Part shown: positions 37,772-49,133 of the stretch, in pieces
How positions within the stretch are numbered: position 1 is the first letter of the stretch
Layout: each line of letters starts with the position of its first letter
From: Escherichia coli
Lineage (GTDB): Bacteria; Pseudomonadota; Gammaproteobacteria; Enterobacterales; Enterobacteriaceae
DNA: 64,000 nucleotides
Strand: one strand, 5' to 3'
Assembly: GCF_003019035.1 (NCBI RefSeq)
Contig: NZ_CP027447.1
Made by a program: the position numbers and the translations under genes
Notes under the pieces: model-generated
Database searches by the model: none
Told to the model about the DNA's origin: nothing
The model's input: the letters and a program-made list of their open reading frames with translations, nothing else

Positions 37772-38113
37772 ATGCGCTGTAAAACGCTGACTGCTGCAGC
37801 AGCAGTACTATTGATGTTGACCGCAGGCTGTTCCACTCTGGAGCGAGTGGTTTACCGTCCTGACATCAACCAGGGGAACTATCTGACCGCTAACGACGTA
37901 TCCAAAATACGTGTTGGCATGACGCAACAACAAGTTGCGTACGCATTGGGTACACCGCTGATGTCCGATCCATTTGGTACGAATACCTGGTTCTATGTCT
38001 TCCGCCAGCAACCAGGTCATGAAGGTGTAACGCAGCAAACGCTGACGCTGACCTTTAATAGTAGCGGGGTGTTGACCAATATTGATAATAAACCTGCGCT
38101 GAGTGGTAACTAA
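37772..38113 (+). CDS. bamE: Outer membrane protein assembly factor BamE (SmpA) lipoprotein
   Basis: 113 aa, lipobox LTAGCS. Confidence 0.95.
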
Positions 38114-39759: not shown

Positions 39760-40123
39760 GGGGCTGATTCTGGATTCGACGGGATTTGCGAAACCCAAGG
39801 TGCATGCCGAGGGGCGGTTGGCCTCGTAAAAAGCCGCAAAAAATAGTCGCAAACGACGAAAACTACGCTTTAGCAGCTTAATAACCTGCTTAGAGCCCTC
39901 TCTCCCTAGCCTCCGCTCTTAGGACGGGGATCAAGAGAGGTCAAACCCAAAAGAGATCGCGTGGAAGCCCTGCCTGGGGTTGAAGCGTTAAAACTTAATC
40001 AGGCTAGTTTGTTAGTGGCGTGTCCGTCCGCAGCTGGCAAGCGAATGTAAAGACTGACTAAGCATGTAGTACCGAGGATGTAGGAATTTCGGACGCGGGT
40101 TCAACTCCCGCCAGCTCCACCAC
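39760..40123 (+). ncRNA. ssrA: tmRNA (transfer-messenger RNA, 10Sa RNA)
   Basis: GGGGCTGATTCTGGATTCGACGGG... through the tag reading frame gcaaacgacgaaaactacgctttagcagcttaa (ANDENYALAA) to the tRNA-like 3' end GGTTCAACTCCCGCCAGCTCCACCA. Confidence 0.96.
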
Positions 40124-40156
40124 TTTTTAGTAAAATGACGTCTACTAAAGTCTACT

Positions 40157-40191
40157 AAGGCCGCATACCACAAGGGTTTGCGGCCTTTTTC
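40157..40191 (+). terminator. Rho-independent terminator downstream of ssrA, inside the island left arm
   Basis: aaggccgcataccacaagggtttgcggcc hairpin followed by ttttt. Confidence 0.75.
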
Positions 40192-40289
40192 ATGTCCAGT
40201 GAAGTCTACTGAGAATTGCTAGAAACCACTCCTTATGGCACCCTCCTATTATCCCTCGTCGATGAGGGAGTAAAAACGAGGGAGCAAAA

Positions 40290-41522
40290 ATGCCAAAGGT
40301 AGCAACAAAACTCACTGACACAGAGATCAAAAAGGCCAAGCCCACAGAGAAAGAGTTCACGCTATGGGATGGAGATGGCTTGTTCCTGCGCATCAAACCA
40401 AGTGGCAAAAAAATCTGGCACCTCGGCTATACCGTTCCATTAACCAAGAAACGGGCCAAAATGAGTCTTGGGTTCTATCCCTACCTGACACTTGCTCAAG
40501 CAAGAGCGCTACGGGATGAATACCTCTCTTTGCTTGCACAGGGTATCGATCCCCAATCCCACAATGAGCAAAAAGCCCAAGCGCTTAAAGATGCCACTGA
40601 ACACACATTCCAGACTGTAGCGAAAAAATGGCTTGATGAAAAAATTAAAACATCAGGCATATCGCAAGATCATGCTAAGGATATCTGGCGTAGCCTTGAA
40701 CGGAACATCTTTCCTACTTTAGGGGATGTTCCCATTAAAGAGATCCGCCCTAAAATGTTAAAACAACACCTTGACCCCATAGAACAAAGGGGCGTACTCG
40801 AAACCTTGCGACGTATAATTTCCCGACTTAATGAAATTTTCCGCTATGCCGCGACAGAAGAACTCATTGAGTTCAACCCCGCTGACAACCTTATCCAACG
40901 TTTTAGTAAACCCAAAAAGCAAAATATGCCTGCGTTGCCGCCAGATGAACTACCCCGTTTCATGACAGCATTATCAAACGCATCTATACGCTTAGAAACA
41001 CGTCTACTAATTGAATGGCAACTTCTTACTTGGGTTCGTCCCGGTGAAGCTGTACGCGCTCGCTGGACTGACATAGACGAAGAAAGCAAGTATTGGAACA
41101 TTCCATCCGATTTCATGAAGATGAAACGTCCTCATAAGGTTCCATTGAGCAAAGAAGCTATACGTATTCTTGAATCCATGAAACCAATCAGCGGTCATCG
41201 TGAGTGGGTTTTCCCCAGCATAAAAAATCCTTTAACACATATGCACGAGCAAACTGCCAACGCCGCATTAATCCGAATGGGCTTAGGTGGAGAACTCGTA
41301 GCACATGGCATGCGTTCTATTGCAAGAACAGCAGCAGAAGAAGCAGGAAAATTTAGGACAGAAGTTCTTGAAGCGGCTCTCGCCCACTCAAAAAAAGATG
41401 AAATCATTGCTGCTTATAACCGTACAGAATATTTAGTCGAGCGTGTCGAGTTAATGCAATGGTGGAGTGATTATCTCCAAATACAAAAATATAAGTCTTT
41501 AACAACTCTGATCGCCAGCTAA
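40290..41522 (+). CDS. P4-type (IntA/SlpA-like) tyrosine site-specific integrase
   Basis: 410 aa; N-terminal arm-binding region (KLTDTEIKKAKP...LWDGDGLFLRIKPSGKKIW) and C-terminal catalytic region with R...HxxR...Y context (VAHGMRSIARTAA...LAHS...AYNRTEY); located directly after ssrA. Confidence 0.92.
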   Translation: MPKVATKLTDTEIKKAKPTEKEFTLWDGDGLFLRIKPSGKKIWHLGYTVPLTKKRAKMSLGFYPYLTLAQARALRDEYLSLLAQGIDPQSHNEQKAQALKDATEHTFQTVAKKWLDEKIKTSGISQDHAKDIWRSLERNIFPTLGDVPIKEIRPKMLKQHLDPIEQRGVLETLRRIISRLNEIFRYAATEELIEFNPADNLIQRFSKPKKQNMPALPPDELPRFMTALSNASIRLETRLLIEWQLLTWVRPGEAVRARWTDIDEESKYWNIPSDFMKMKRPHKVPLSKEAIRILESMKPISGHREWVFPSIKNPLTHMHEQTANAALIRMGLGGELVAHGMRSIARTAAEEAGKFRTEVLEAALAHSKKDEIIAAYNRTEYLVERVELMQWWSDYLQIQKYKSLTTLIAS

Positions 41523-41679
41523 TCCTACAATCAACCCAATATCAGAAGCTGGCTTTAGTAGGGATACTTCCATTTTTCTGATATTGTATTACCATGTAGC
41601 TGAAAGTCAGATACCAAGTAGAAAAACACATTTTTATGTATGCTTTATCGAATAAAACATTAACCAAATAGGGGGACTA

Positions 41680-42399
41680 ATGGAAGATTTAGTTTGTAGT
41701 TGGTCACCAAAGCTGATCGTTGATCTTATAAAAAGTATCGCTTGGCCAGTAGTCGTCCTTCTCATCGGCTTCAGTTTTCGAACTCGAATTTTTGAAGTGG
41801 CACGTTCATTTTTTTCTAAAAACACAGTTTCAGAAATATCAGCTACAGTATCAGGTGTATCGGCAAAATTTGTGACAGCAAAGCAAACAACTGAAGTATT
41901 AGAAAGTGCTAGTACCAATGCAGCGAATTTACCAAAGAGTATGAGTATTGAGGCTATAAGAGCGCGACATGAACAGCATAAAACAGAATTCAGCGAAGAG
42001 TTATATCAATCAATAATTAAACATGCTTCCTCTTTAGATATTAATAATGATGAAAAAGTCAAAATTCTGGCACGTGAATTGTCTATTTATCAAGCTATAA
42101 TACGATATATTGACATTAATAAGATATTATTTCGCTCACAATACAATTTATTTTGTTCTATAAATAGTAATGGTGGTCAAATAAATAAAGAAGACGCCAA
42201 TCTTTTTTTTGAGGCGACCAAGAACAACAATAAAGAAGCATTCTCCGATTGGGATTGGATTAAATATATTGCCTATCCTGTTAGTAATAGCCTTATCTAT
42301 GAAGATAATAATTTTTATAAACTTACAGAGTTGGGAAGATCGTATATAGCTTTTATGTCAAAAAATCCACAACTAATCGACGAACTTGCAAAATTATAG
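41680..42399 (+). CDS. Hypothetical membrane-anchored protein (N-terminal TM helix), island cargo
   Basis: 239-aa ORF with aggggga RBS; hydrophobic segment IAWPVVVLLIGFSF; AT-rich codon usage; no recognisable family. Confidence 0.6.
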   Translation: MEDLVCSWSPKLIVDLIKSIAWPVVVLLIGFSFRTRIFEVARSFFSKNTVSEISATVSGVSAKFVTAKQTTEVLESASTNAANLPKSMSIEAIRARHEQHKTEFSEELYQSIIKHASSLDINNDEKVKILARELSIYQAIIRYIDINKILFRSQYNLFCSINSNGGQINKEDANLFFEATKNNNKEAFSDWDWIKYIAYPVSNSLIYEDNNFYKLTELGRSYIAFMSKNPQLIDELAKL

Positions 42400-42629
42400 T
42401 AGGGAATAATATTAAACCCTACTCAATGACTGTTTCAGATCTTGGTTCTGTATCCCATAAATGATCAGGTAAAGTCTAAGCGAATAGCGTTTAACAGGTG
42501 GGATGACTCACTACGTGAACCACCCACCTATAAAAAGGGTTTTTCTTCTGGTGAGTTGTCAATAAAAATGAAGGTTTCCACCTTTCATGCGGACCCTCCT
42601 TAATTTTTTTTGACAAGTTGAGATCGAGA

Positions 42630-43082
42630 CTATTTATCATTACGTTTTTTCATAAAATATTTATAACGTTCATCAGCTTCTTTTTGAAACTTTTCAGCGT
42701 CAAACGTATCAGTTTCTATTTTTATTTTTTGTTTTACCGCTTCATCTAATCTTTTATTTTCTTTCAATCTTTCTTTTTCTACTAATATAAGTTTATAGTA
42801 TTTTAGCTTAATATTAAAACTTGCTTTTGCTAACTCCTTAGCGTCAAAACCTATATTGTATTTTTTAAGAAGTTTCAATATATAATCTATAGTCATTTTT
42901 TTCACTTCCTTTTTTATTTTTTCTTCATGCGCATCTTTTTTTATACTCCCACTTTTTAACCATTGCTTAAATTTATAGCCATTATAATGCTGCCATTGAT
43001 ATATTTCAGCGGCATACATCACCGACAACATACAAACAATAAAAAATACAACCATAAAAACCACACATATTAAATAATACAT
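42630..43082 (-). CDS. Hypothetical membrane-anchored Lys/Glu-rich protein, gene 6
   Basis: 150 aa; N-terminal TM LICVVFMVVFFIVCMLSVMYAA then a charged helical region. Confidence 0.55.
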   Translation of the reverse strand: MYYLICVVFMVVFFIVCMLSVMYAAEIYQWQHYNGYKFKQWLKSGSIKKDAHEEKIKKEVKKMTIDYILKLLKKYNIGFDAKELAKASFNIKLKYYKLILVEKERLKENKRLDEAVKQKIKIETDTFDAEKFQKEADERYKYFMKKRNDK

Positions 43083-43083
43083 A

Positions 43084-43320
43084 TCAGCCCCCGCCTTTCC
43101 TTCTATATTGTTCTTTTATTAATGCTACGTGATATTTTTTTGCGTTGCTTATACTTACATCAGCAGAGTTTCTAGCAGAAGCAAAAGCACTTGAAACAAC
43201 AGAAGCAATAATGGCAACTAAGAAAGCAGCAACAAAAAAACCCATCACTGGCCCCATAAAACTAGCCCCACCGTCATCTATTGCTGGTTTTGCTTTTGCT
43301 AATAATGATAATAGGCTCAT
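43084..43320 (-). CDS. Hypothetical small membrane protein (single TM), gene 5
   Basis: 78 aa; hydrophobic core GPVMGFFVAAFLVAIIASVVSSAF followed by a basic tail. Confidence 0.55.
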   Translation of the reverse strand: MSLLSLLAKAKPAIDDGGASFMGPVMGFFVAAFLVAIIASVVSSAFASARNSADVSISNAKKYHVALIKEQYRRKGGG

Positions 43321-43730
43321 ATATTTCTCTCTTCTTCAATGTTTTTAATCGCTGTTTCTATTCTTTGTTTTACAAAGTCTCTAAACACATAACCTATTAT
43401 TCGCGCGTCTTCACATATATCTAACTCATCTTTTTTATGAAAATATAAATCAGCGCTTAAAAGCTCTTCGCTTTGAATATTTAACATTTTACTAGCAAGT
43501 GATATTCTAATAATATTTCGCACTTCTAAATCCAAGCTTGCTCTATCATGCTTATTCAAAAGCTGGAGCGGATGAAAATCTTTTTTTCTTTTCATTTCTT
43601 GCATATCATTATCAAAATCTATCATTAAAAAATGTAAGCAAGTAAAAGACGTATCATAGAAGTTTAAGCGGTTCATCATATCCGCCGTTCCCTCTTTTCG
43701 AGGGTTCGGGTTAGGTCTTAATTTATTCAT
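43317..43730 (-). CDS. Hypothetical protein, gene 4
   Basis: 137 aa; overlaps gene 3 by 8 bp and gene 5 by 4 bp. Confidence 0.55.
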   Translation of the reverse strand: MNKLRPNPNPRKEGTADMMNRLNFYDTSFTCLHFLMIDFDNDMQEMKRKKDFHPLQLLNKHDRASLDLEVRNIIRISLASKMLNIQSEELLSADLYFHKKDELDICEDARIIGYVFRDFVKQRIETAIKNIEEERNI

Positions 43731-44064
43731 CTGCTTTACTCCTTTTCTTGTTGTTTTTTAGCTTCCATTCATTCAATCTTTTATCGCCTTCAACTTTTAA
43801 GAACTCACGCTGATCGTGTATTCTTTTCAGTATTAGATTATTAGTTAACGCTCCTACTAACAAAGAAATATCATTCGCAAAATCTAATGTCTCGATGTTA
43901 TTTTCTCTAACTATTCTTATTAGTTCAGCGCCGGCTTTTATTTTACGTGTCGTATCTTTTTTCCTTTCTTCTGCCTTCATTTCTTGCTCCATTCTATTCA
44001 ATAAGTTTGCTCTTTGCTCAATTTCTTTTTTTAATTTATTATATTTTTCTATATTAAACGCCAT
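43723..44064 (-). CDS. Hypothetical basic coiled-coil protein, gene 3
   Basis: 113 aa, Lys/Glu-rich heptad-like N-terminus (EKYNKLKKEIEQRANLLNRMEQEMKAEERKK). Confidence 0.55.
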   Translation of the reverse strand: MAFNIEKYNKLKKEIEQRANLLNRMEQEMKAEERKKDTTRKIKAGAELIRIVRENNIETLDFANDISLLVGALTNNLILKRIHDQREFLKVEGDKRLNEWKLKNNKKRSKADE

Positions 44065-44383
44065 TTTCTGAACCTCTCTTTTCTTTTATCGTAATAAAAA
44101 AGGCAATCAACCCACTGATCAATAAAATTGGTAAAGTTAAAATAAACCCTACCAATAACACTAATGAAAATCCGAGCACGCCGGACATCTCATATAGATT
44201 TCCGAACAATGTGCTTTCGTTTTTATACTCAACCATATTCTGTAAAACAGACCTTTTTTCAATATCTTTTTCTTTTAAAGAATCTTCTCTATATTCATAA
44301 TCTTCACAACTCAAAGAAATTTCCACAGTGTTATCATTCAAATACTCATTATCATAATAGTCGTAATCATTATTCCCAATCAT
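44054..44383 (-). CDS. Hypothetical membrane protein (acidic Tyr/Asp-rich N-terminus, C-terminal TM segment), gene 2
   Basis: 109 aa; hydrophobic stretch GVLGFSLVLLVGFILTLPILLISGLIAFFITI; translationally coupled to neighbours. Confidence 0.55.
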   Translation of the reverse strand: MIGNNDYDYYDNEYLNDNTVEISLSCEDYEYREDSLKEKDIEKRSVLQNMVEYKNESTLFGNLYEMSGVLGFSLVLLVGFILTLPILLISGLIAFFITIKEKRGSENGV

Positions 44384-44565
44384 TCTAGATCTCCTTCTAA
44401 CGTGTCATAAACAACAGTAAAATCATTCTCATGAGAAAGAAGATTGTAAGTTATAAATAAGCTTGTCCTATAAACAATATCTGTATTTTCATCCTGTAGT
44501 TTTTGAATAATCAACTTAACAAGATCAGACGCTGCCACTTCAATTTTTTTATCAATATCATTCAT
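44380..44565 (-). CDS. Hypothetical small acidic protein, gene 1 of the six-gene island operon
   Basis: 61 aa; agagg-type RBS; stop overlaps the next gene start by 4 bp. Confidence 0.5.
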   Translation of the reverse strand: MNDIDKKIEVAASDLVKLIIQKLQDENTDIVYRTSLFITYNLLSHENDFTVVYDTLEGDLE

Positions 44566-44737
44566 GTTCCACCTCTTTTATTTTTTATGATTTCTGTTAT
44601 ATATATTAAGTAATATAATTATTTATTTAAGTAAAGCGCGATATATATTTTTTTGTTTTTAGAACGCATTTTTCAGATAAAAGGCTCACGTGCGGCGGCT
44701 ATTTTAGTTTTGCTAAAAACTACAATAGCGCACTTAT

Positions 44738-44761
44738 ACATTCTTCGAATGTGTGCGCCCC
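44738..44761 (+). promoter_or_regulatory. Candidate origin of transfer (oriT) with MobQ-type nick motif
   Basis: Inverted repeat acattc-ttc-gaatgt immediately followed by GTGCGCCCC, resembling the recalled RSF1010 oriT nick region (IR + TAAGTGCG/CCCT); lies about 115 bp upstream of the relaxase gene. Confidence 0.55.
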
Positions 44762-44874
44762 ATAAATGGGGGTTTACTAACGCAGAAAAATAAAAAGTAA
44801 TATTCGCTTTATGCTCAATATTACTTAATCGCTTTTCAAAAAAGCAAATATATTTTTATTATTTTAAAAAGTAT

Positions 44875-46203
44875 GTGTTTCAATATCAGGAGATAAAAAC
44901 AATGGCAATATTTCATATGAGCGCTCAAACAATAACACGCAGCAAGGGGTATAGTAGCGTAGCTGCGGCAGCTTATCGCCACGGCGAAAAGTTAACGGAC
45001 GAACACACAGGAGAGATCCACGACTACAGCAAAAAGAAAGGTGTTTCAGACAGTGTTATATTAATACCTGAAAGCGCAGACCGTAATTTTTTAAAGCCTG
45101 CGTATTTATGGAACATGATAGAAAAAAGCGAAAAAAGAAAAGATGCGCAGTTAGCTCGCGAGTTTAATATTGCGCTTCCTGTCGAAATGACAGATGAACA
45201 AAAAAAGGCGTTAGCAATAGATTTTTGCCAAGAGCATTTTGTAAAAAATGGAATGATTGCTGATATAGCTTTTCACAAGCTCGATAGCGACAACCCACAT
45301 TTTCATGTAATGCTAACCACCCGCAGCCTTACGCCGGACGGTTCAGAGTTCGGACATAAAGTCAGGGAATGGAACAACAAAGAGCAGCTCGAAGGCTGGC
45401 GCAAGAGCTGGGCTGACACAGCGAACGAGCACATGCAAAAGGCTGGCATCGATGCGCATATAGATCACAGATCACTGAAAGAACAAAAAGCAGAGCTTGA
45501 CGCTATCCTCCCCCCTCTCAGAACGATTGAGCAAGAGGCGCAGGCTATCAGCTTAGACAGACCGCCGACTATCCATAGAGGCCATAGCCGCAATCCAGAG
45601 CGACAAGCACGCTTTGACGTGCTCCAAGAAGTGAAAGTATCACAAGAGGAAAAAGCACTTAACCACATTGAACAGAAACAACTTAAGCCCTCGCCGCTGG
45701 CTCCAGCTTCCTCCCCTGCCGCATCTTTGCAAGATGCTACACAAGGAGGCAATGAAAACAACCCGCAAAATAGACTCGGCGAAGTTGGCGAATATCTTCA
45801 ATCTAAACTCAATAAAGAAGATAAAGCAGATCTTAATACTGATAATGAAATCAAAGTTCACACTACTAAAAATAATAGGGAAAGCAGTTCAGCAGCAGCT
45901 ATAGGTTCAACATCAAATATTAATTTAACCGATGAGAAAACAGATAAGAATCTACACTTAACAGAAGCACAAAAAGAAGAGTTAGAGGATTTAGAAAATA
46001 AAGAAGCAGCAGCGAAGAAAAAAGCTTATCTGATGAGCGGAGCTGCCGTTCCTGAACTTTCTCAAGATTACAAAACACTGTCAAAAAGTGAGTTTAAAAA
46101 TAAGCTTCATACAGCTAAACAATCAATATCATTAACTGAAAAGAGATTTAATGAAGAATGTGAAGCATATGATAACAGAAGAAAACGACCAATACCGCGC
46201 TAA
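44875..46203 (+). CDS. MobA/MobL-family (MobQ-type) conjugative relaxase, relaxase domain only
   Basis: N-terminus MAIFHMSAQTITRSKGYSSVAAAAYRHGEKL aligns with RSF1010 MobA MAIYHLTAKTGSRSGG...ADYIQREGKY (catalytic Tyr region); HFHVMLTTR matches the His motif HCHLMISER; C-terminal half is low-complexity Lys/Glu/Ser-rich with no primase domain. Confidence 0.85.
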   Translation: MFQYQEIKTMAIFHMSAQTITRSKGYSSVAAAAYRHGEKLTDEHTGEIHDYSKKKGVSDSVILIPESADRNFLKPAYLWNMIEKSEKRKDAQLAREFNIALPVEMTDEQKKALAIDFCQEHFVKNGMIADIAFHKLDSDNPHFHVMLTTRSLTPDGSEFGHKVREWNNKEQLEGWRKSWADTANEHMQKAGIDAHIDHRSLKEQKAELDAILPPLRTIEQEAQAISLDRPPTIHRGHSRNPERQARFDVLQEVKVSQEEKALNHIEQKQLKPSPLAPASSPAASLQDATQGGNENNPQNRLGEVGEYLQSKLNKEDKADLNTDNEIKVHTTKNNRESSSAAAIGSTSNINLTDEKTDKNLHLTEAQKEELEDLENKEAAAKKKAYLMSGAAVPELSQDYKTLSKSEFKNKLHTAKQSISLTEKRFNEECEAYDNRRKRPIPR

Positions 46204-46563
46204 GTATTTTGCTCATTTTTTATCCCCAATGAATGACTTAGCGTTATATTTACTTTAACTAATTGATACTATTGATTTATTTTCACCTCACGTCGTATCG
46301 TTTATATCGATCAAAATCGACAAAGTGATAGTTAACACCTATCACAACCAATTCATCGATCGATTAAAACAATTAATACACCGATCGATAAACGAGATTT
46401 AATCGTTAAAAACTATCAATATTAAATAATTGATCTGTTATAACGATCATTTTGCTTGAGAGTAGCCCTCCTCATGGTATGCTCGGAGCGTGGAAGACCG
46501 GGCTACTCACCTTGATATCTTCTTGATTAAGCAAAACTATCGCTCTATGAGGAATGAAATTTT

Positions 46564-47058
46564 ATGAAAACCGAAAACATTATTTTTCTTGTTTGGGCAG
46601 TGATTTTTATCCTGATTCTCTGCCAACTTTTTTATTTTGGCCCTAAAAAAAGAAGATACCTCAATACTTATATAGAGGTATTAGATGGTGATGTCCTCTC
46701 ATATGAATGTCAAAATACCGGCGTAGTTATTGATACTAAAAAAAACACAGTACGTATTTTCAATACATATAAGGACAGCACTTTCAAATACGACAACATC
46801 AGGGAAATAAATTATACGCTATCCGAAGCCGGAAAAATTTATAGCACAAGTAATAATCTAAACTCTATGATAAAGTCCGCTGGAGCTAACAGTAATGAAC
46901 AAATGTTAGCTAATCAGCGTTCCGGTATTTTTATACTGACAGATGATATAAAAAATCCTTCATGGAAAATCAATCTACCAATGAAAAACAAAACATCATC
47001 TACCAATCAGGAGATCTGCGATCGATGGCTTCTCATTTTTAAAAAATACGTTTTATAA
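46564..47058 (+). CDS. Hypothetical membrane-anchored protein
   Basis: 164 aa; gagga RBS; N-terminal TM IIFLVWAVIFILILCQLFYF. Confidence 0.55.
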   Translation: MKTENIIFLVWAVIFILILCQLFYFGPKKRRYLNTYIEVLDGDVLSYECQNTGVVIDTKKNTVRIFNTYKDSTFKYDNIREINYTLSEAGKIYSTSNNLNSMIKSAGANSNEQMLANQRSGIFILTDDIKNPSWKINLPMKNKTSSTNQEICDRWLLIFKKYVL

Positions 47059-47090
47059 CTTTGTTTTTTATTTTTATCTTTGGAGTTGAC

Positions 47091-47468
47091 ATGAAAAAAT
47101 TGATTGCGGCAGCATTTATTATTCTCCCTTTAGCAAGTTGTACTGTTTATGGAAACAAATCCATTAAAGACGAAACGCAGCAAAATATAGCCTCTAAAAT
47201 TATAAAAGGTAAAACTACTCAAAAAGATATCCTTCAACTTTATGGAGAACCTCAGACTAAAGAAACTAACGATGGTAAAGAAATGTGGGGATATTCCGTT
47301 ATGTCCGGTGAATCTCAGATTTCAAATTACATACCGGGATTAGCGTTATTGAAGAATAGCAGCACAGCGCACATGAAAGAACTTGAGATCTTGTTTAAAG
47401 GTGATGTAGTTGAACGCTATACCTTTAGACAAACGGCAAGCAAAGCTTCTCGCGGGTTGTTAGATTAA
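47091..47468 (+). CDS. Hypothetical lipoprotein (possible SmpA/OmlA-like fold)
   Basis: Start at MKKLIAAAFIILPLASC (lipobox LASC) preceded by ggag RBS; about 125 aa; weak pattern similarity to BamE-type lipoproteins (Q..L..YG.P.....W.Y). Confidence 0.55.
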   Translation: MKKLIAAAFIILPLASCTVYGNKSIKDETQQNIASKIIKGKTTQKDILQLYGEPQTKETNDGKEMWGYSVMSGESQISNYIPGLALLKNSSTAHMKELEILFKGDVVERYTFRQTASKASRGLLD

Positions 47469-47730
47469 TTTAAATTAAATACCATTTTATCTTTAAAAAG
47501 AAGTTGGAATAGTCCGACTTCTTTTCTATTTTATCAATAACATGCATTATTTATATTAGTGCCTTATGAAATGGCACCTTACTTTTTATATTTCCCTATC
47601 TGGGGGTTTAACCTTTGTTTTTTATTAAAAAAAATTTTGTACTAGTAGTACTAATTAATTAATTTAAAAATTTTTGGTTTTAAGGTTTTGGGGTTTGTGT
47701 TTTAGCGGGGCGGCTTTCAGCCGTAGTAGT

Positions 47731-47760
47731 TTTCCTCCGAAGGAGGAAATAGTTTTTCTT
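47731..47760. terminator. Perfect palindrome followed by T-run (terminator-like) in the island non-coding region
   Basis: tttcctccgaaggaggaaa followed by tagtttttcttt. Confidence 0.5.
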
Positions 47761-48087
47761 TAAGCATTCCCCCCCTACCCCCCACGCCAAAAAGGCTAAA
47801 AAAGAGAGATAGGAGATGCTCATTGCGTCTTGAAAATATTCAGAACGTTTCCATTCTGATACTTCCCCCACGACCCACGCAAACACAAATCATGAAACTT
47901 TCAAACAACTCTCGTTTTACTAAAGAGTCTATGCTACTGTTTGTAAATTTTTTAGATTGTGCGATTCAGGTTGGCAGCTACGCATATCCCGGTTAACCGC
48001 TGCCGCAATATTCTAAGTTTCACCAAACACTCGATGTCCTTCGTACTTAGACCTTGATACAACAAGGGTAATATTATATTGCTTTTG

Positions 48088-48223
48088 TAGATTAAATGTT
48101 TCTGGAAATGGTATTGACATTTTATCTATGTCAAAGTCGGCGAAATTTGTTTAATCATGCAGATTAGAGGCTTCTGGAAGTGGTATTTAATATTAGTTAA
48201 AAGTCGACGAAGCATTTCTAATC
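48088..48223. repeat. Tandem imperfect direct repeat of about 66-70 bp (two copies)
   Basis: Copy 1 gtagattaaatgtttctggaaatggtattgacatt...gtcaaagtcggcgaaatttgtttaatc and copy 2 gcagattagaggcttctggaagtggtatttaatatt...aaaagtcgacgaagcatttctaatc align by eye with several mismatches and a short gap. Confidence 0.6.
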
Positions 48224-48469
48224 TTTTGTATCTTTATATTATATAAATCTATATATAACACCAGTCAATAGATGAAATCAAAAATATTTTAAAAACATGA
48301 CTAGATGAAAAACAAAAAAAGACCAGATTAAACCCCAGTCTCTTTTTTACTTAATATCAGTTATGTTTTTCATATATAGTTCTAAAACGCTCTGTACGCG
48401 ATTTTGAGACGTTTTACACTGGAAGCGGCGTAATCATATAAATAATAAAATAGAATACTGTAATGATTT

Positions 48470-48673
48470 TTATGCCGCTTGATTACGCGAATAAAAAATC
48501 TTATCATCAATCCATTCGTCAACTTCACTTTCAACAAATGCGATAGTTCTTTCACCAGTCTTGATCGGAGAAGGGAAATCACCCCGGCTAATCAGCCGAT
48601 AGATCCACGCTTTACAAAAACCAGTCTTGTTTAACACTTCGGGTATGCGGATAAGTCTTTTTCTTTCGTTCAT
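48470..48673 (-). CDS. AlpA-family (HTH_17, excisionase-like) transcriptional regulator
   Basis: MNERKRLIRIPEVLNKTGFCKAWIYRLISRGDFPSPIKTGERTIAFVESEVDEWI matches the AlpA/prophage CP4-57 regulator pattern; start chosen at the Met preceded by a gagga RBS (ORF track starts 4 codons upstream). Confidence 0.8.
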   Translation of the reverse strand: MNERKRLIRIPEVLNKTGFCKAWIYRLISRGDFPSPIKTGERTIAFVESEVDEWIDDKIFYSRNQAA

Positions 48674-49133
48674 ATATTTCCTCATAGTTGTTTTGATGAG
48701 GCTATTATTCGAATATCGCTTATGACGATCAACAACTTTTTTAGCAAAAAGTGCTTTTTTAGTTGACTATTTTAAATTAACAGTCATTTAATCACCTTTG
48801 GAAGTTGAACTCATGAGTTCAACTCCTCACCGCTAGTCATGACATTCAAAATGTGCTTATTTTTTAGCCACAATACTTTTTTTATCCCTTTATTGCACCT
48901 CAATGTAAAATACAAATAATTAATATATTTAATAATCAAATGATTAAAGAGTCGATTACAGGGACGCCAGCCAATCATGATTGGACGGTGTAAGGACAAC
49001 ACTAATAAAAACAGGAAGTTAGCAGTCTCAGCAGGACACCGACCAGACGGTGAGGAGACATAAAAGGATACGCAAAGGAGCCGCGGCCCCTGGTGATATG
49101 AAAGCCCACAGATGTGGGCTTTTTCGTTGATGG

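What the first reader, a model, noticed from the sequence alone, without database searches (positions are those of the whole stretch)
46564..47468. Pair of small envelope proteins (membrane-anchored protein plus lipoprotein) downstream of the relaxase
The two genes are separated by only 2 bp. The first (164 aa) has an N-terminal TM anchor; the second has a signal peptide with lipobox LASC and a weak BamE/SmpA-OmlA-like pattern. On mobilizable elements, envelope-protein pairs often mediate entry exclusion or protect against the element's own or competitors' effectors.
Basis: inference. Interest (0 to 1): 0.45.

Follow-up and report, generated by a model that had tools for sequence, protein, structure and literature searches.

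The report
PH-domain protein and BamE-like lipoprotein operon
Two small co-transcribed genes on a mobilizable island (an inner-membrane protein whose PH-like domain faces the cytoplasm, and an outer-membrane BamE-like lipoprotein that prophages also carry next to their repressor) form a widespread, uncharacterised module that probably changes the cell envelope to the element's benefit, for example by excluding incoming DNA; this is untested.

The parts
39760..40122 (+). ssrA (tmRNA) gene; the island's integration site lies at its 3' end
   Evidence: Rfam tmRNA 295.8 bits; ARAGORN; same arrangement annotated in E. coli SCU-301
40290..41522 (+). Tyrosine integrase of the island
   Evidence: Pfam Arm-DNA-bind_3, Phage_int_M, Phage_integrase
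44728..44770 (+). Candidate oriT: inverted repeat (GCGCAC..ACATTC / GAATGT..GTGCGC) followed by GTGCGCCCC, just upstream of mobQ
   Evidence: Read from the sequence. The motif was not found in the mobQ-upstream regions of related islands. Resemblance to RSF1010-type MOBQ nic sites is from memory, so this is inference only.
44875..46203 (+). MobQ-family relaxase
   Evidence: NCBIfam MobQ 6.9e-76, above cut-off; Pfam MobA_MobL 2.1e-63
46261..46453 (.). Conserved ~195-bp non-coding element with 5 GATC sites, 13 CGAT/ATCG tetramers and several palindromes (ATCGTT..AACGAT, TGATAG-n7-CTATCA, TCGATCGA twice, ATCAAT-n8-ATTGAT); probable control region of the operon
   Evidence: Alignment of 10 loci with many invariant columns, including all GATC sites. 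nhmmer E 1e-42 to 1e-53 in all 31 island-type locus records then in hand, and absent from phage loci; found again in the nine island loci fetched later, E 1e-39 to 1e-49. Median nt identity 77% versus 67% and 72% for the two CDSs; GATC 26/kb versus 3.4/kb. Present in 592 of 5426 complete E. coli genomes.
46456..46483 (+). Sigma-70-like promoter (TTGAGA-16-TGgTATGCT, extended -10) immediately 3' of the element
   Evidence: Consensus scan. The TGGTATGCT block is conserved in part of the alignment. Not shown to be functional.
46564..47058 (+). ORF-A: DUF4755 protein, 164 aa; N-out/C-in single-pass inner-membrane protein with a cytoplasmic PH-like domain
47091..47468 (+). ORF-B: 125-aa lipoprotein precursor (lipobox LASC, Cys17, Thr at +2) with a BamE/OsmE-like fold; phrog_3135
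47496..47525 (+). Intrinsic-terminator-like hairpin with a T-run, ending the two-gene operon
   Evidence: Consensus scan: 13-pair stem
48470..48685 (-). AlpA-family regulator or excisionase-like gene near the island's right side
   Evidence: Pfam Phage_AlpA 5.3e-18

Best explanation
ORF-A and ORF-B are the promoter-proximal two-gene operon of a conserved module found in a family of MobQ-type integrative islands of Enterobacterales. This family includes small mobilizable islands like this 8.6-kb ssrA island and larger islands with type IV pilus genes, such as the E. coli tcpC/serU island. The operon is driven from a promoter that abuts a highly conserved ~195-bp GATC- and palindrome-rich control region. 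ORF-B is exported, lipidated at Cys17 and, lacking a Lol-avoidance Asp at +2, sorted to the inner leaflet of the outer membrane. There its BamE/OsmE-like domain most likely binds an envelope protein. Its phage paralogues sit in the cI-adjacent slot that is expressed in lysogens. The most likely role is therefore a resident-state envelope conversion that hinders entry of competing DNA: superinfecting phage or conjugative transfer. It would work as T5 Llp, phi80 Cor, F TraT or IncC Sfx do, by masking or allosterically altering an outer-membrane component. ORF-A is a separate function: a PH-like protein-binding domain held at the cytoplasmic face of the inner membrane. It may act there on incoming DNA or protein (as SXT Eex does), or on the island's own maintenance or regulation. 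Shown: gene reality, architecture, folds, predicted topology, conserved linkage, the control element, and phage, plasmid and island distribution. Inferred: localisation, co-transcription, any exclusion activity, and any partner.
For: Pair adjacency in 15 distinct intact island loci, plus 3 in which one gene is a pseudogene. The pair is retained in minimal 8-11-kb islands with different relaxase families (MobA_MobL here; PF03432 Relaxase in L005). Purifying selection on both genes. Lipobox and +2 Thr. BamE/OsmE/BLIP/T6SS-immunity-like fold. Phage paralogues (33-43% identity) lie directly downstream of a CI-type HTH+S24 repressor on the same strand in at least 42 of 76 loci, with Cro and replication O divergent; this is the lambda rexAB position. 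Others lie in a tail-region moron slot. A conserved control element and promoter precede the operon. DUF4755 is a PH-like fold with cytoplasmic orientation. Precedents: outer-membrane lipoprotein Sfx causes surface exclusion and is also encoded by mobilizable islands; ColE1 mbeD; Eex determinants are cytoplasmic (PMC11493245). The T5 Llp-FhuA complex exists as PDB 8a60.
Against: There is no sequence or profile similarity to TraT, TraS, TrbK, MbeD, Eex, Sfx, Llp or Cor. The only Llp match is the signal peptide. PADLOC gives nothing. The BamE-like fold is generic and also serves housekeeping roles. On plasmids the lipoprotein is an isolated accessory gene, not part of tra operons. The lipoprotein is very conserved (about 70% identity across genera) and shows no obvious hypervariable specificity patch of the kind seen in TraT or Eex. 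The two genes are separable and each decays independently, so they need not share a function. The island lacks its own T4SS, so what it would exclude is unclear. Localisation and topology rest on rules of thumb, not on dedicated predictors or experiment.
Confidence: 0.4

Rival explanations
1. The two genes are not a functional pair. DUF4755 is a cytoplasmic backbone factor of the island family, for example a regulator, a maintenance or replication accessory, or an adaptor acting with the 195-bp element. The lipoprotein is independent cargo that happens to share the transcript.
For: TM-less DUF4755 variants occupy the same first position after the element but are followed by different genes: a 156-158-aa coiled-coil protein plus a third small ORF, with or without the lipoprotein. 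A distant DUF4755 lies in an int-RepL-HTH-MobA_MobL element with no lipoprotein. The lipoprotein is solo in 76 phage loci, on plasmids, and in Dickeya and Pectobacterium islands that keep the element. Each gene is independently frameshifted in some E. coli. The domains lie in different compartments, so direct contact is unlikely.
Against: In every locus with a TM-type DUF4755 the lipoprotein follows within about 10-50 bp on the same strand, across about 50-100% protein identity and two relaxase families. Minimal islands keep both genes.
Confidence: 0.3
2. ORF-B is an envelope-homeostasis or fitness factor: a BamE/OsmE paralogue that modulates BAM or outer-membrane stress tolerance, or gives serum resistance as Bor and TraT do. 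It would benefit the host rather than exclude DNA.
For: Best structural matches are BamE and OsmE. hhalign to E. coli BamE gives 66% probability over the N-terminal half. Several sources name homologues BamE or SmpA/OmlA. The module lies in pathogenicity-type islands (tcpC island).
Against: No Pfam SmpA_OmlA hit; the OsmE score of 15.6 bits is far below the cut-off of 65. The host already has bamE 9 kb away. The long low-confidence beta-hairpin insert at residues 70-95 is absent from BamE. The prophage position behind cI is more typical of exclusion or defence genes (general knowledge of lambda rexAB and P22 sieB).
Confidence: 0.2
3. ORF-B is an orphan immunity or inhibitor protein against a periplasm-acting toxin or enzyme, such as a T6SS effector, bacteriocin, lysozyme or beta-lactamase-like target.
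Confidence: 0.1
4. The operon is an anti-phage abortive-infection or defence system, with the membrane protein as effector.
For: The surrounding slots in related islands hold defence-like cargo: TIR, macro, ApeA, pP_pnuc, DUF4238 and AAA_15/21 ATPases. The phage paralogues sit in the rexAB slot.
Against: No PADLOC hit for either protein. Neither protein has an enzymatic or pore-forming signature. ORF-A has a single TM helix and TM-less variants exist.
Confidence: 0.08

Closest known systems
BamE / OsmE (SmpA_OmlA) outer-membrane lipoproteins
   Different: Below all family HMM thresholds. Has an extra N-terminal strand and a long beta-hairpin insert. Encoded on phages, plasmids and islands rather than in the core genome. 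No evidence of BAM association.
Phage superinfection-exclusion lipoproteins (T5 Llp; phi80/N15/HK022 Cor)
   Same: Small outer-membrane lipoproteins made by the resident element. The phage paralogues of ORF-B are moron or immunity-region genes. Llp acts by binding the outer-membrane receptor FhuA (PDB 8a60, listed; mechanism from own knowledge).
   Different: No homology beyond the signal peptide, a different fold, and an unknown target.
Conjugative exclusion factors: F TraS/TraT, IncC Sfx, RP4 TrbK, ColE1 MbeD, SXT Eex
   Same: Inner-membrane protein next to an outer-membrane lipoprotein, as in F traS-traT. Lipoprotein exclusion factors are also found on mobilizable elements (Sfx, MbeD), and Eex specificity determinants are cytoplasmic (PMC11493245).
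   Different: No sequence similarity to any of them. This island has no T4SS of its own. On plasmids the lipoprotein is not linked to tra genes. No activity has been shown.
Bacterial PH-like (bPH) domain membrane proteins
   Same: TM helix or helices followed by a seven-stranded PH-like sandwich capped by a C-terminal helix. One family member weakly matches Pfam bPH_3.
   Different: DUF4755 is a separate Pfam family with an inserted long helix (residues 99-119). It is small (172 clusters at 50% identity) and, where context could be examined, linked to mobile elements.
Lambda rexAB slot (genes co-transcribed with cI in lysogens)
   Same: Phage paralogues of ORF-B lie 4-200 bp downstream of cI on the same strand.
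   Different: A single lipoprotein gene rather than a cytoplasmic sensor plus membrane channel. The island copy is not linked to a repressor.

Membership tests
Pfam DUF4755 (PF15947) | HMM score above the gathering threshold | tested here: met
   45.3 bits versus cut-off 27, residues 41-160; all 52 aligned relatives match
PH-like fold superfamily | Seven-stranded beta-sandwich capped by a C-terminal helix | tested here: met
Bacterial lipoproteins (signal peptidase II substrates) | n-h regions followed by lipobox [LVI][ASTVIG][GAS]C with an invariant Cys | tested here: met
   LASC at residues 14-17; Cys invariant; lipobox in 129 of 131 homologues; Pfam LPAM_1 15.7 bits, below cut-off 20. No SignalP or LipoP available.
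Bacterial lipoproteins (signal peptidase II substrates) | Outer-membrane sorting (no Asp at +2) | tested here: met
   +2 is Thr in 126 of 129, Ser or Ala in the rest. This is a rule of thumb for Enterobacterales; localisation was not measured.
BamE / SmpA_OmlA (PF04355) and OsmE | Family HMM match above threshold | tested here: not met
   No Pfam SmpA_OmlA hit at E<=1; NCBIfam OsmE 15.6 bits versus cut-off 65
BamE / SmpA_OmlA (PF04355) and OsmE | alpha-alpha-beta-beta-beta fold | tested here: met
BamE / SmpA_OmlA (PF04355) and OsmE | Association with the BamABCDE complex | not testable with these tools
   Needs co-purification or genetics
PHROG phrog_3135 | Full-length HMM match | tested here: met
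   1.1e-28, residues 1-121 of 125; family function unknown
Known exclusion factors (TraT, TraS, TrbK, MbeD/MobD, Eex, Sfx) | Sequence or profile homology | tested here: not met
   No such family among Pfam or NCBIfam hits at E<=1 for either protein. Sfx has no HMM in these libraries, so it was not tested directly.
Known exclusion factors (TraT, TraS, TrbK, MbeD/MobD, Eex, Sfx) | Reduces DNA entry when expressed in the recipient | not testable with these tools
   Needs mating or phage assays
T5 Llp / Cor | Homology of the mature domain | tested here: not met
   The PDB profile hit to 8a60_B covers only residues 1-29, the signal peptide
Known anti-phage defence systems (PADLOC 2.0) | HMM match | tested here: not met
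   0 families for both proteins
Integrative mobilizable element (context of the pair) | Integrase next to a tRNA-like gene, relaxase with oriT, and no mating-pore genes | tested here: met
   ssrA; integrase and AlpA; MobQ; no T4SS-sized ORFs between 40.1 and 48.9 kb. The oriT is only a candidate, and no attR repeat was found.

The most novel reading that the evidence does not exclude
The ~195-bp element with five invariant GATC sites is a Dam/SeqA- or H-NS-sensitive switch. It fires the operon transiently when the island enters a new cell (hemimethylated state) or in a phase-variable way. This would install a two-layer barrier made of two new protein families. The first is a BamE-mimicking outer-membrane lipoprotein that disables an outer-membrane receptor or a BAM-dependent step used by phages or mating adhesins. 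The second is a PH-like domain at the cytoplasmic face of the inner membrane that blocks incoming DNA or relaxase, that is, a new class of entry-exclusion factor encoded by mobilizable islands.
Probability: 0.1. Interest if true: 0.7.

Novelty: new variant of a known kind. Interest (0 to 1): 0.4.

Why it matters
If the module excludes phage or conjugative DNA, it would add two unrelated protein families (DUF4755 and phrog_3135) to the short list of exclusion factors. It would also extend exclusion by mobilizable islands, so far shown only for Sfx-carrying islands (PMC11493245). The conserved element that precedes the module is present in about 11% of complete E. coli genomes, including the tcpC/serU island of uropathogenic strains and Nissle 1917; in the loci sampled it is usually followed by this module. 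The module is also found in Salmonella, Klebsiella, Pectobacterium and Dickeya islands and in many lambdoid prophages. A function would therefore annotate thousands of 'hypothetical' genes. The conserved GATC-rich element is a tractable candidate for a regulatory site or origin of this island family. If the module turns out to be an ordinary accessory lipoprotein plus a membrane protein of unknown role, the finding is of modest interest.

Tried and rejected
1. TTG 47061 as the start of ORF-B was rejected in favour of ATG 47091.
2. A periplasmic DUF4755 domain with a Cys49-Cys152 disulfide was rejected. The cysteines are invariant only in the close clade, are not conserved family-wide, and the topology evidence points to the cytoplasm.
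3. PDB sequence searches gave only a signal-peptide match to Llp and chance hits.
4. PADLOC gave no hit, and PHROGs gave nothing for ORF-A.
5. No phage carries DUF4755.
6. No paper mentions DUF4755. The searches for 'BamE prophage superinfection exclusion lipoprotein' and 'PhiR26' found nothing relevant.
7. The search for related loci with the diverse alignment A3 failed. The genome scan with A1 returned only 4 species-representative loci.
8. The afdb50 fold library was unavailable.
9. The 195-bp element as a known RNA: Rfam gave only a chance snoRNA hit, E 0.85.
10. The element as the MobQ oriT is unlikely. A better oriT-like site lies upstream of mobQ, and the element also occurs in islands with a different relaxase family.
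11. The element as a single-strand (Frpo-like) promoter was not pursued. The hairpins are short local palindromes with invariant arms, consistent with protein-binding sites, and the strand polarity is uncertain.
12. Search for an attR copy of the ssrA 3' end found none, and direct-repeat scans were uninformative.
13. Several distant DUF4755 members lie on contigs too short to give context.

Full report
**Setting**

The window is E. coli chromosome. A tmRNA gene (39760-40122) is followed by an AT-rich (~32% GC) island of ~8.6 kb. The island carries:
- a tyrosine integrase (40290-41522);
- several small ORFs with no family match;
- a MobQ relaxase (44875-46203);
- the two ORFs of the finding;
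- an AlpA-family gene (48470-48685).

The conserved ypjA/EhaD autotransporter follows. There are no mating-pore genes, so this is a small integrative mobilizable element. A near-identical island occurs in only 4 of 5426 complete E. coli genomes. In one of them (SCU-301) the DUF4755 gene is frameshifted.

**Checking the observation**

ORF-A (46564-47058, 164 aa) is as described. ORF-B ends at 47468, but the TTG start at 47061 is only the longest mechanical ORF. Every homologue is 125 aa and begins MKK. GGAG lies 5 nt upstream of ATG 47091. The spacer is therefore 32 bp, not 2 bp.

A promoter-like site (46456-46483) precedes ORF-A. No terminator separates the genes, and a 13-pair hairpin with a T-run follows ORF-B (47496-47525). 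A two-gene transcript is likely but not shown. Median dN/dS is 0.12 for ORF-A and 0.08 for ORF-B, over the pairs among 14 related loci that passed the dS filter. Both are real genes.

**ORF-B**

- It has a classic lipoprotein signal (LASC, invariant Cys17).
- A lipobox is present in 129 of 131 full-length homologues, with Thr at +2 in 126. By the enterobacterial sorting rule this predicts outer-membrane anchoring.
- It matches phrog_3135 over its full length (1.1e-28) but no Pfam family above threshold.
- hhalign against the host's own BamE gives 66% probability over the N-terminal half.

Family membership by HMM is not met.

**ORF-A**

- It is Pfam DUF4755 (45.3 bits versus 27). The family is small: 172 clusters at 50% identity in 1.84 billion proteins. 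No paper in the library mentions it.
- The AF2 model is confident (pLDDT 90.5). It shows a TM helix at 3-24 followed by a beta-sandwich with an inserted helix and a C-terminal helix.
- Topology: across 52 family members the single-TM forms have 0-1 Lys/Arg before the helix and 2-6 after it. Two-TM hairpin forms and TM-less forms exist. Some members (P0204, P0227) end in zinc ribbons.

All of this places the PH-like domain in the cytoplasm.

**Linkage**

In every locus holding a close TM-type DUF4755, the lipoprotein follows on the same strand within about 10-50 bp. This covers 15 distinct intact loci plus three in which one gene is a pseudogene. These loci are of two kinds:
- minimal integrase-relaxase-AlpA islands. 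One metagenomic family uses a PF03432 relaxase with MobC instead of MobA_MobL and adds a Replicase/PriCT gene;
- larger islands with type IV pilin genes, TraD, MobQ, DUF4756 and H-NS paralogues in Klebsiella, Salmonella, Brenneria and E. coli.

In Nissle 1917 the module lies in the island that carries tcpC, which the literature calls the serU island (PMC5521745). There ORF-A is 57% identical to the window's copy and the lipoprotein is frameshifted. In strain AR13438 both genes are intact and the lipoprotein is 73% identical.

**Separability**

The lipoprotein occurs without DUF4755 in four settings:
- Pectobacterium atrosepticum, Dickeya and two IMG/VR loci that keep the upstream element;
- 134 plasmids, mostly Burkholderia, as an isolated accessory gene;
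- all 76 phage-type loci examined (33-43% identity);
- within those phage loci, at least 42 of 76 have it directly downstream of a CI-type HTH+S24 repressor on the same strand, with Cro and replication O divergent. This is the position of rexAB in lambda. Others have it in a tail-gene moron slot.

Conversely, a distant DUF4755 sits in an int-RepL-HTH-MobA_MobL element with no lipoprotein. In some E. coli and Enterobacteriaceae islands the gene after the element is a TM-less divergent DUF4755 (113-149 aa, E 6e-10 to 1e-13). It is followed by a 156-158-aa coiled-coil protein and a third small ORF, with or without the lipoprotein. The pairing is frequent and conserved but not obligatory. Because the two domains lie in different compartments, direct contact is unlikely.

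**An unexpected cis element**

The 360-bp spacer between mobQ and ORF-A contains a ~195-bp segment (46261-46453) that is better conserved than the genes it precedes. Median pairwise nucleotide identity is 77%, against 67% for ORF-A and 72% for ORF-B.
- It has five GATC sites, all invariant or nearly so in ten loci (26 per kb against 3.4 per kb in the window).
- It has 10-15 CGAT/ATCG tetramers and several palindromes with invariant arms.
- nhmmer finds it upstream of the operon in all 31 island-type locus records then in hand, including those that lost DUF4755, and in no phage locus. It was found again in the nine island loci fetched later.
- blastn finds it in 592 of 5426 complete E. coli genomes.
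- It matches no Rfam family.
- It is probably not the MobQ oriT. An inverted repeat followed by GTGCGCCCC lies upstream of mobQ, and the element also accompanies a different relaxase family.

I read it as the operator and promoter region of the operon, possibly sensitive to Dam, SeqA or H-NS. An origin or partition site is not excluded. This is unexplained and may be the most interesting by-product of the analysis.

**Mechanism**

The best-supported reading has four parts.
1. The island expresses, from a tightly conserved control region, an outer-membrane BamE-fold lipoprotein that binds an envelope component.
2. Its prophage paralogues occupy the slot co-transcribed with the repressor in lysogens, and minimal mobilizable islands retain it. 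It therefore most likely serves the resident element by hindering entry of competing DNA.
3. It would work like T5 Llp (PDB 8a60), Cor, F TraT or IncC Sfx. Sfx is an outer-membrane lipoprotein that is also encoded by mobilizable islands (PMC11493245).
4. ORF-A presents a PH-like interaction domain at the cytoplasmic face of the inner membrane. It could act like SXT Eex, whose determinants are cytoplasmic (cited in PMC11493245). Given the TM-less variants, it could equally be an island maintenance or regulatory factor.

None of this is demonstrated. Neither protein resembles any known exclusion, immunity or defence factor. I give the exclusion or conversion reading about 0.4. The main rival, that the two genes are functionally independent, gets about 0.3. 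It overlaps the exclusion reading rather than excluding it. Envelope homeostasis, orphan immunity and abortive infection are less likely.

**Verdict**

The module is real, conserved and associated with mobile elements, and the lipoprotein has the context of an exclusion or lysogenic-conversion gene. It is not a pair of envelope proteins, and the exclusion function is conjecture. It belongs to annotated but uncharacterised families, so it is best filed as a new variant of a known kind of mobile-element accessory module. Interest is moderate (0.4), raised somewhat by its wide distribution (the tcpC/serU island, many prophages) and by the conserved GATC-rich element.

Noticed in passing
window 46261-46453: A ~195-bp non-coding element with five invariant GATC sites and several palindromes. 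It is more conserved than the flanking genes, lies upstream of the operon in all 31 island-type locus records then in hand, and occurs in 592 of 5426 complete E. coli genomes. Its function is unknown; it may be an operator, a Dam/SeqA/H-NS site, an origin or a partition site.
   Followed up: partly
L124:5384-6972; L128:2765-4242; L129:2762-4155: An alternative operon lies behind the same element. It has a TM-less divergent DUF4755 (113-149 aa), a conserved 156-158-aa coiled-coil protein and a third small ORF. The lipoprotein follows in L124 but not in L128 or L129.
   Followed up: partly
L127 (E. coli Nissle, NZ_CP035486.1 2158117-2176311): The tcpC island is annotated with a MobQ relaxase, TraD, type IV pilin/PilV shufflon adhesin and RepL. 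PMC5521745 states that the serU island carries neither mobilization nor transfer genes. The island may be a decayed or mobilizable relative of the elements studied here.
   Followed up: no
L009:5222-6621, L015:4072-5055, L127:5482-8019, L118:2559-4900, L129:1-447, and similar: In the larger islands, the stretch between mobQ and the conserved element is a variable hotspot filled with defence-like cargo: TcpC/TIR, macro domain, ApeA, pP_pnuc, GIY-YIG, DUF4238, AAA_15/21 ATPase. In the window this stretch is empty, and mobQ is followed directly by the element.
   Followed up: no
window 44728-44770: An inverted repeat followed by GTGCGCCCC lies just upstream of mobQ and is a candidate oriT or nic site. 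The exact motif is absent from the mobQ-upstream regions of related islands.
   Followed up: partly
window 46461-46509: A 9-bp perfect inverted repeat (GAGTAGCCC ... GGGCTACTC) overlaps the predicted -10 and the 5' UTR of ORF-A. It is seen only in the window and in its closest relative in the alignment (L023); other island loci have a 12-nt deletion or different sequence there.
   Followed up: no
window 47530-48470: About 1 kb with no ORF longer than 68 aa lies between the lipoprotein terminator and alpA. It contains G-run and C-run tracts and two further terminator-like hairpins (47710-47749). Related islands carry a Replicase/PriCT gene at this position (L005). It may be a decayed remnant.
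   Followed up: no
window 40123-49130: No direct repeat of the ssrA 3' end was found to mark the right end (attR) of the island. The AT-rich stretch ends near 48.9 kb, just before ypjA. The island may be fixed or partly decayed.
   Followed up: partly
window 37772-38113: The host's own bamE gene lies only about 9 kb upstream of the BamE-like island lipoprotein. This is probably coincidence, because ssrA is a common integration site next to smpB-ratA-bamE.
   Followed up: no
L009:7036-7566, L013:5812-6366, L127:8365-8895 (minus strand): In the larger islands a second, unrelated 176-184-aa lipoprotein gene is transcribed divergently from the other side of the conserved element. The element may therefore be a bidirectional control region.
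   Followed up: no
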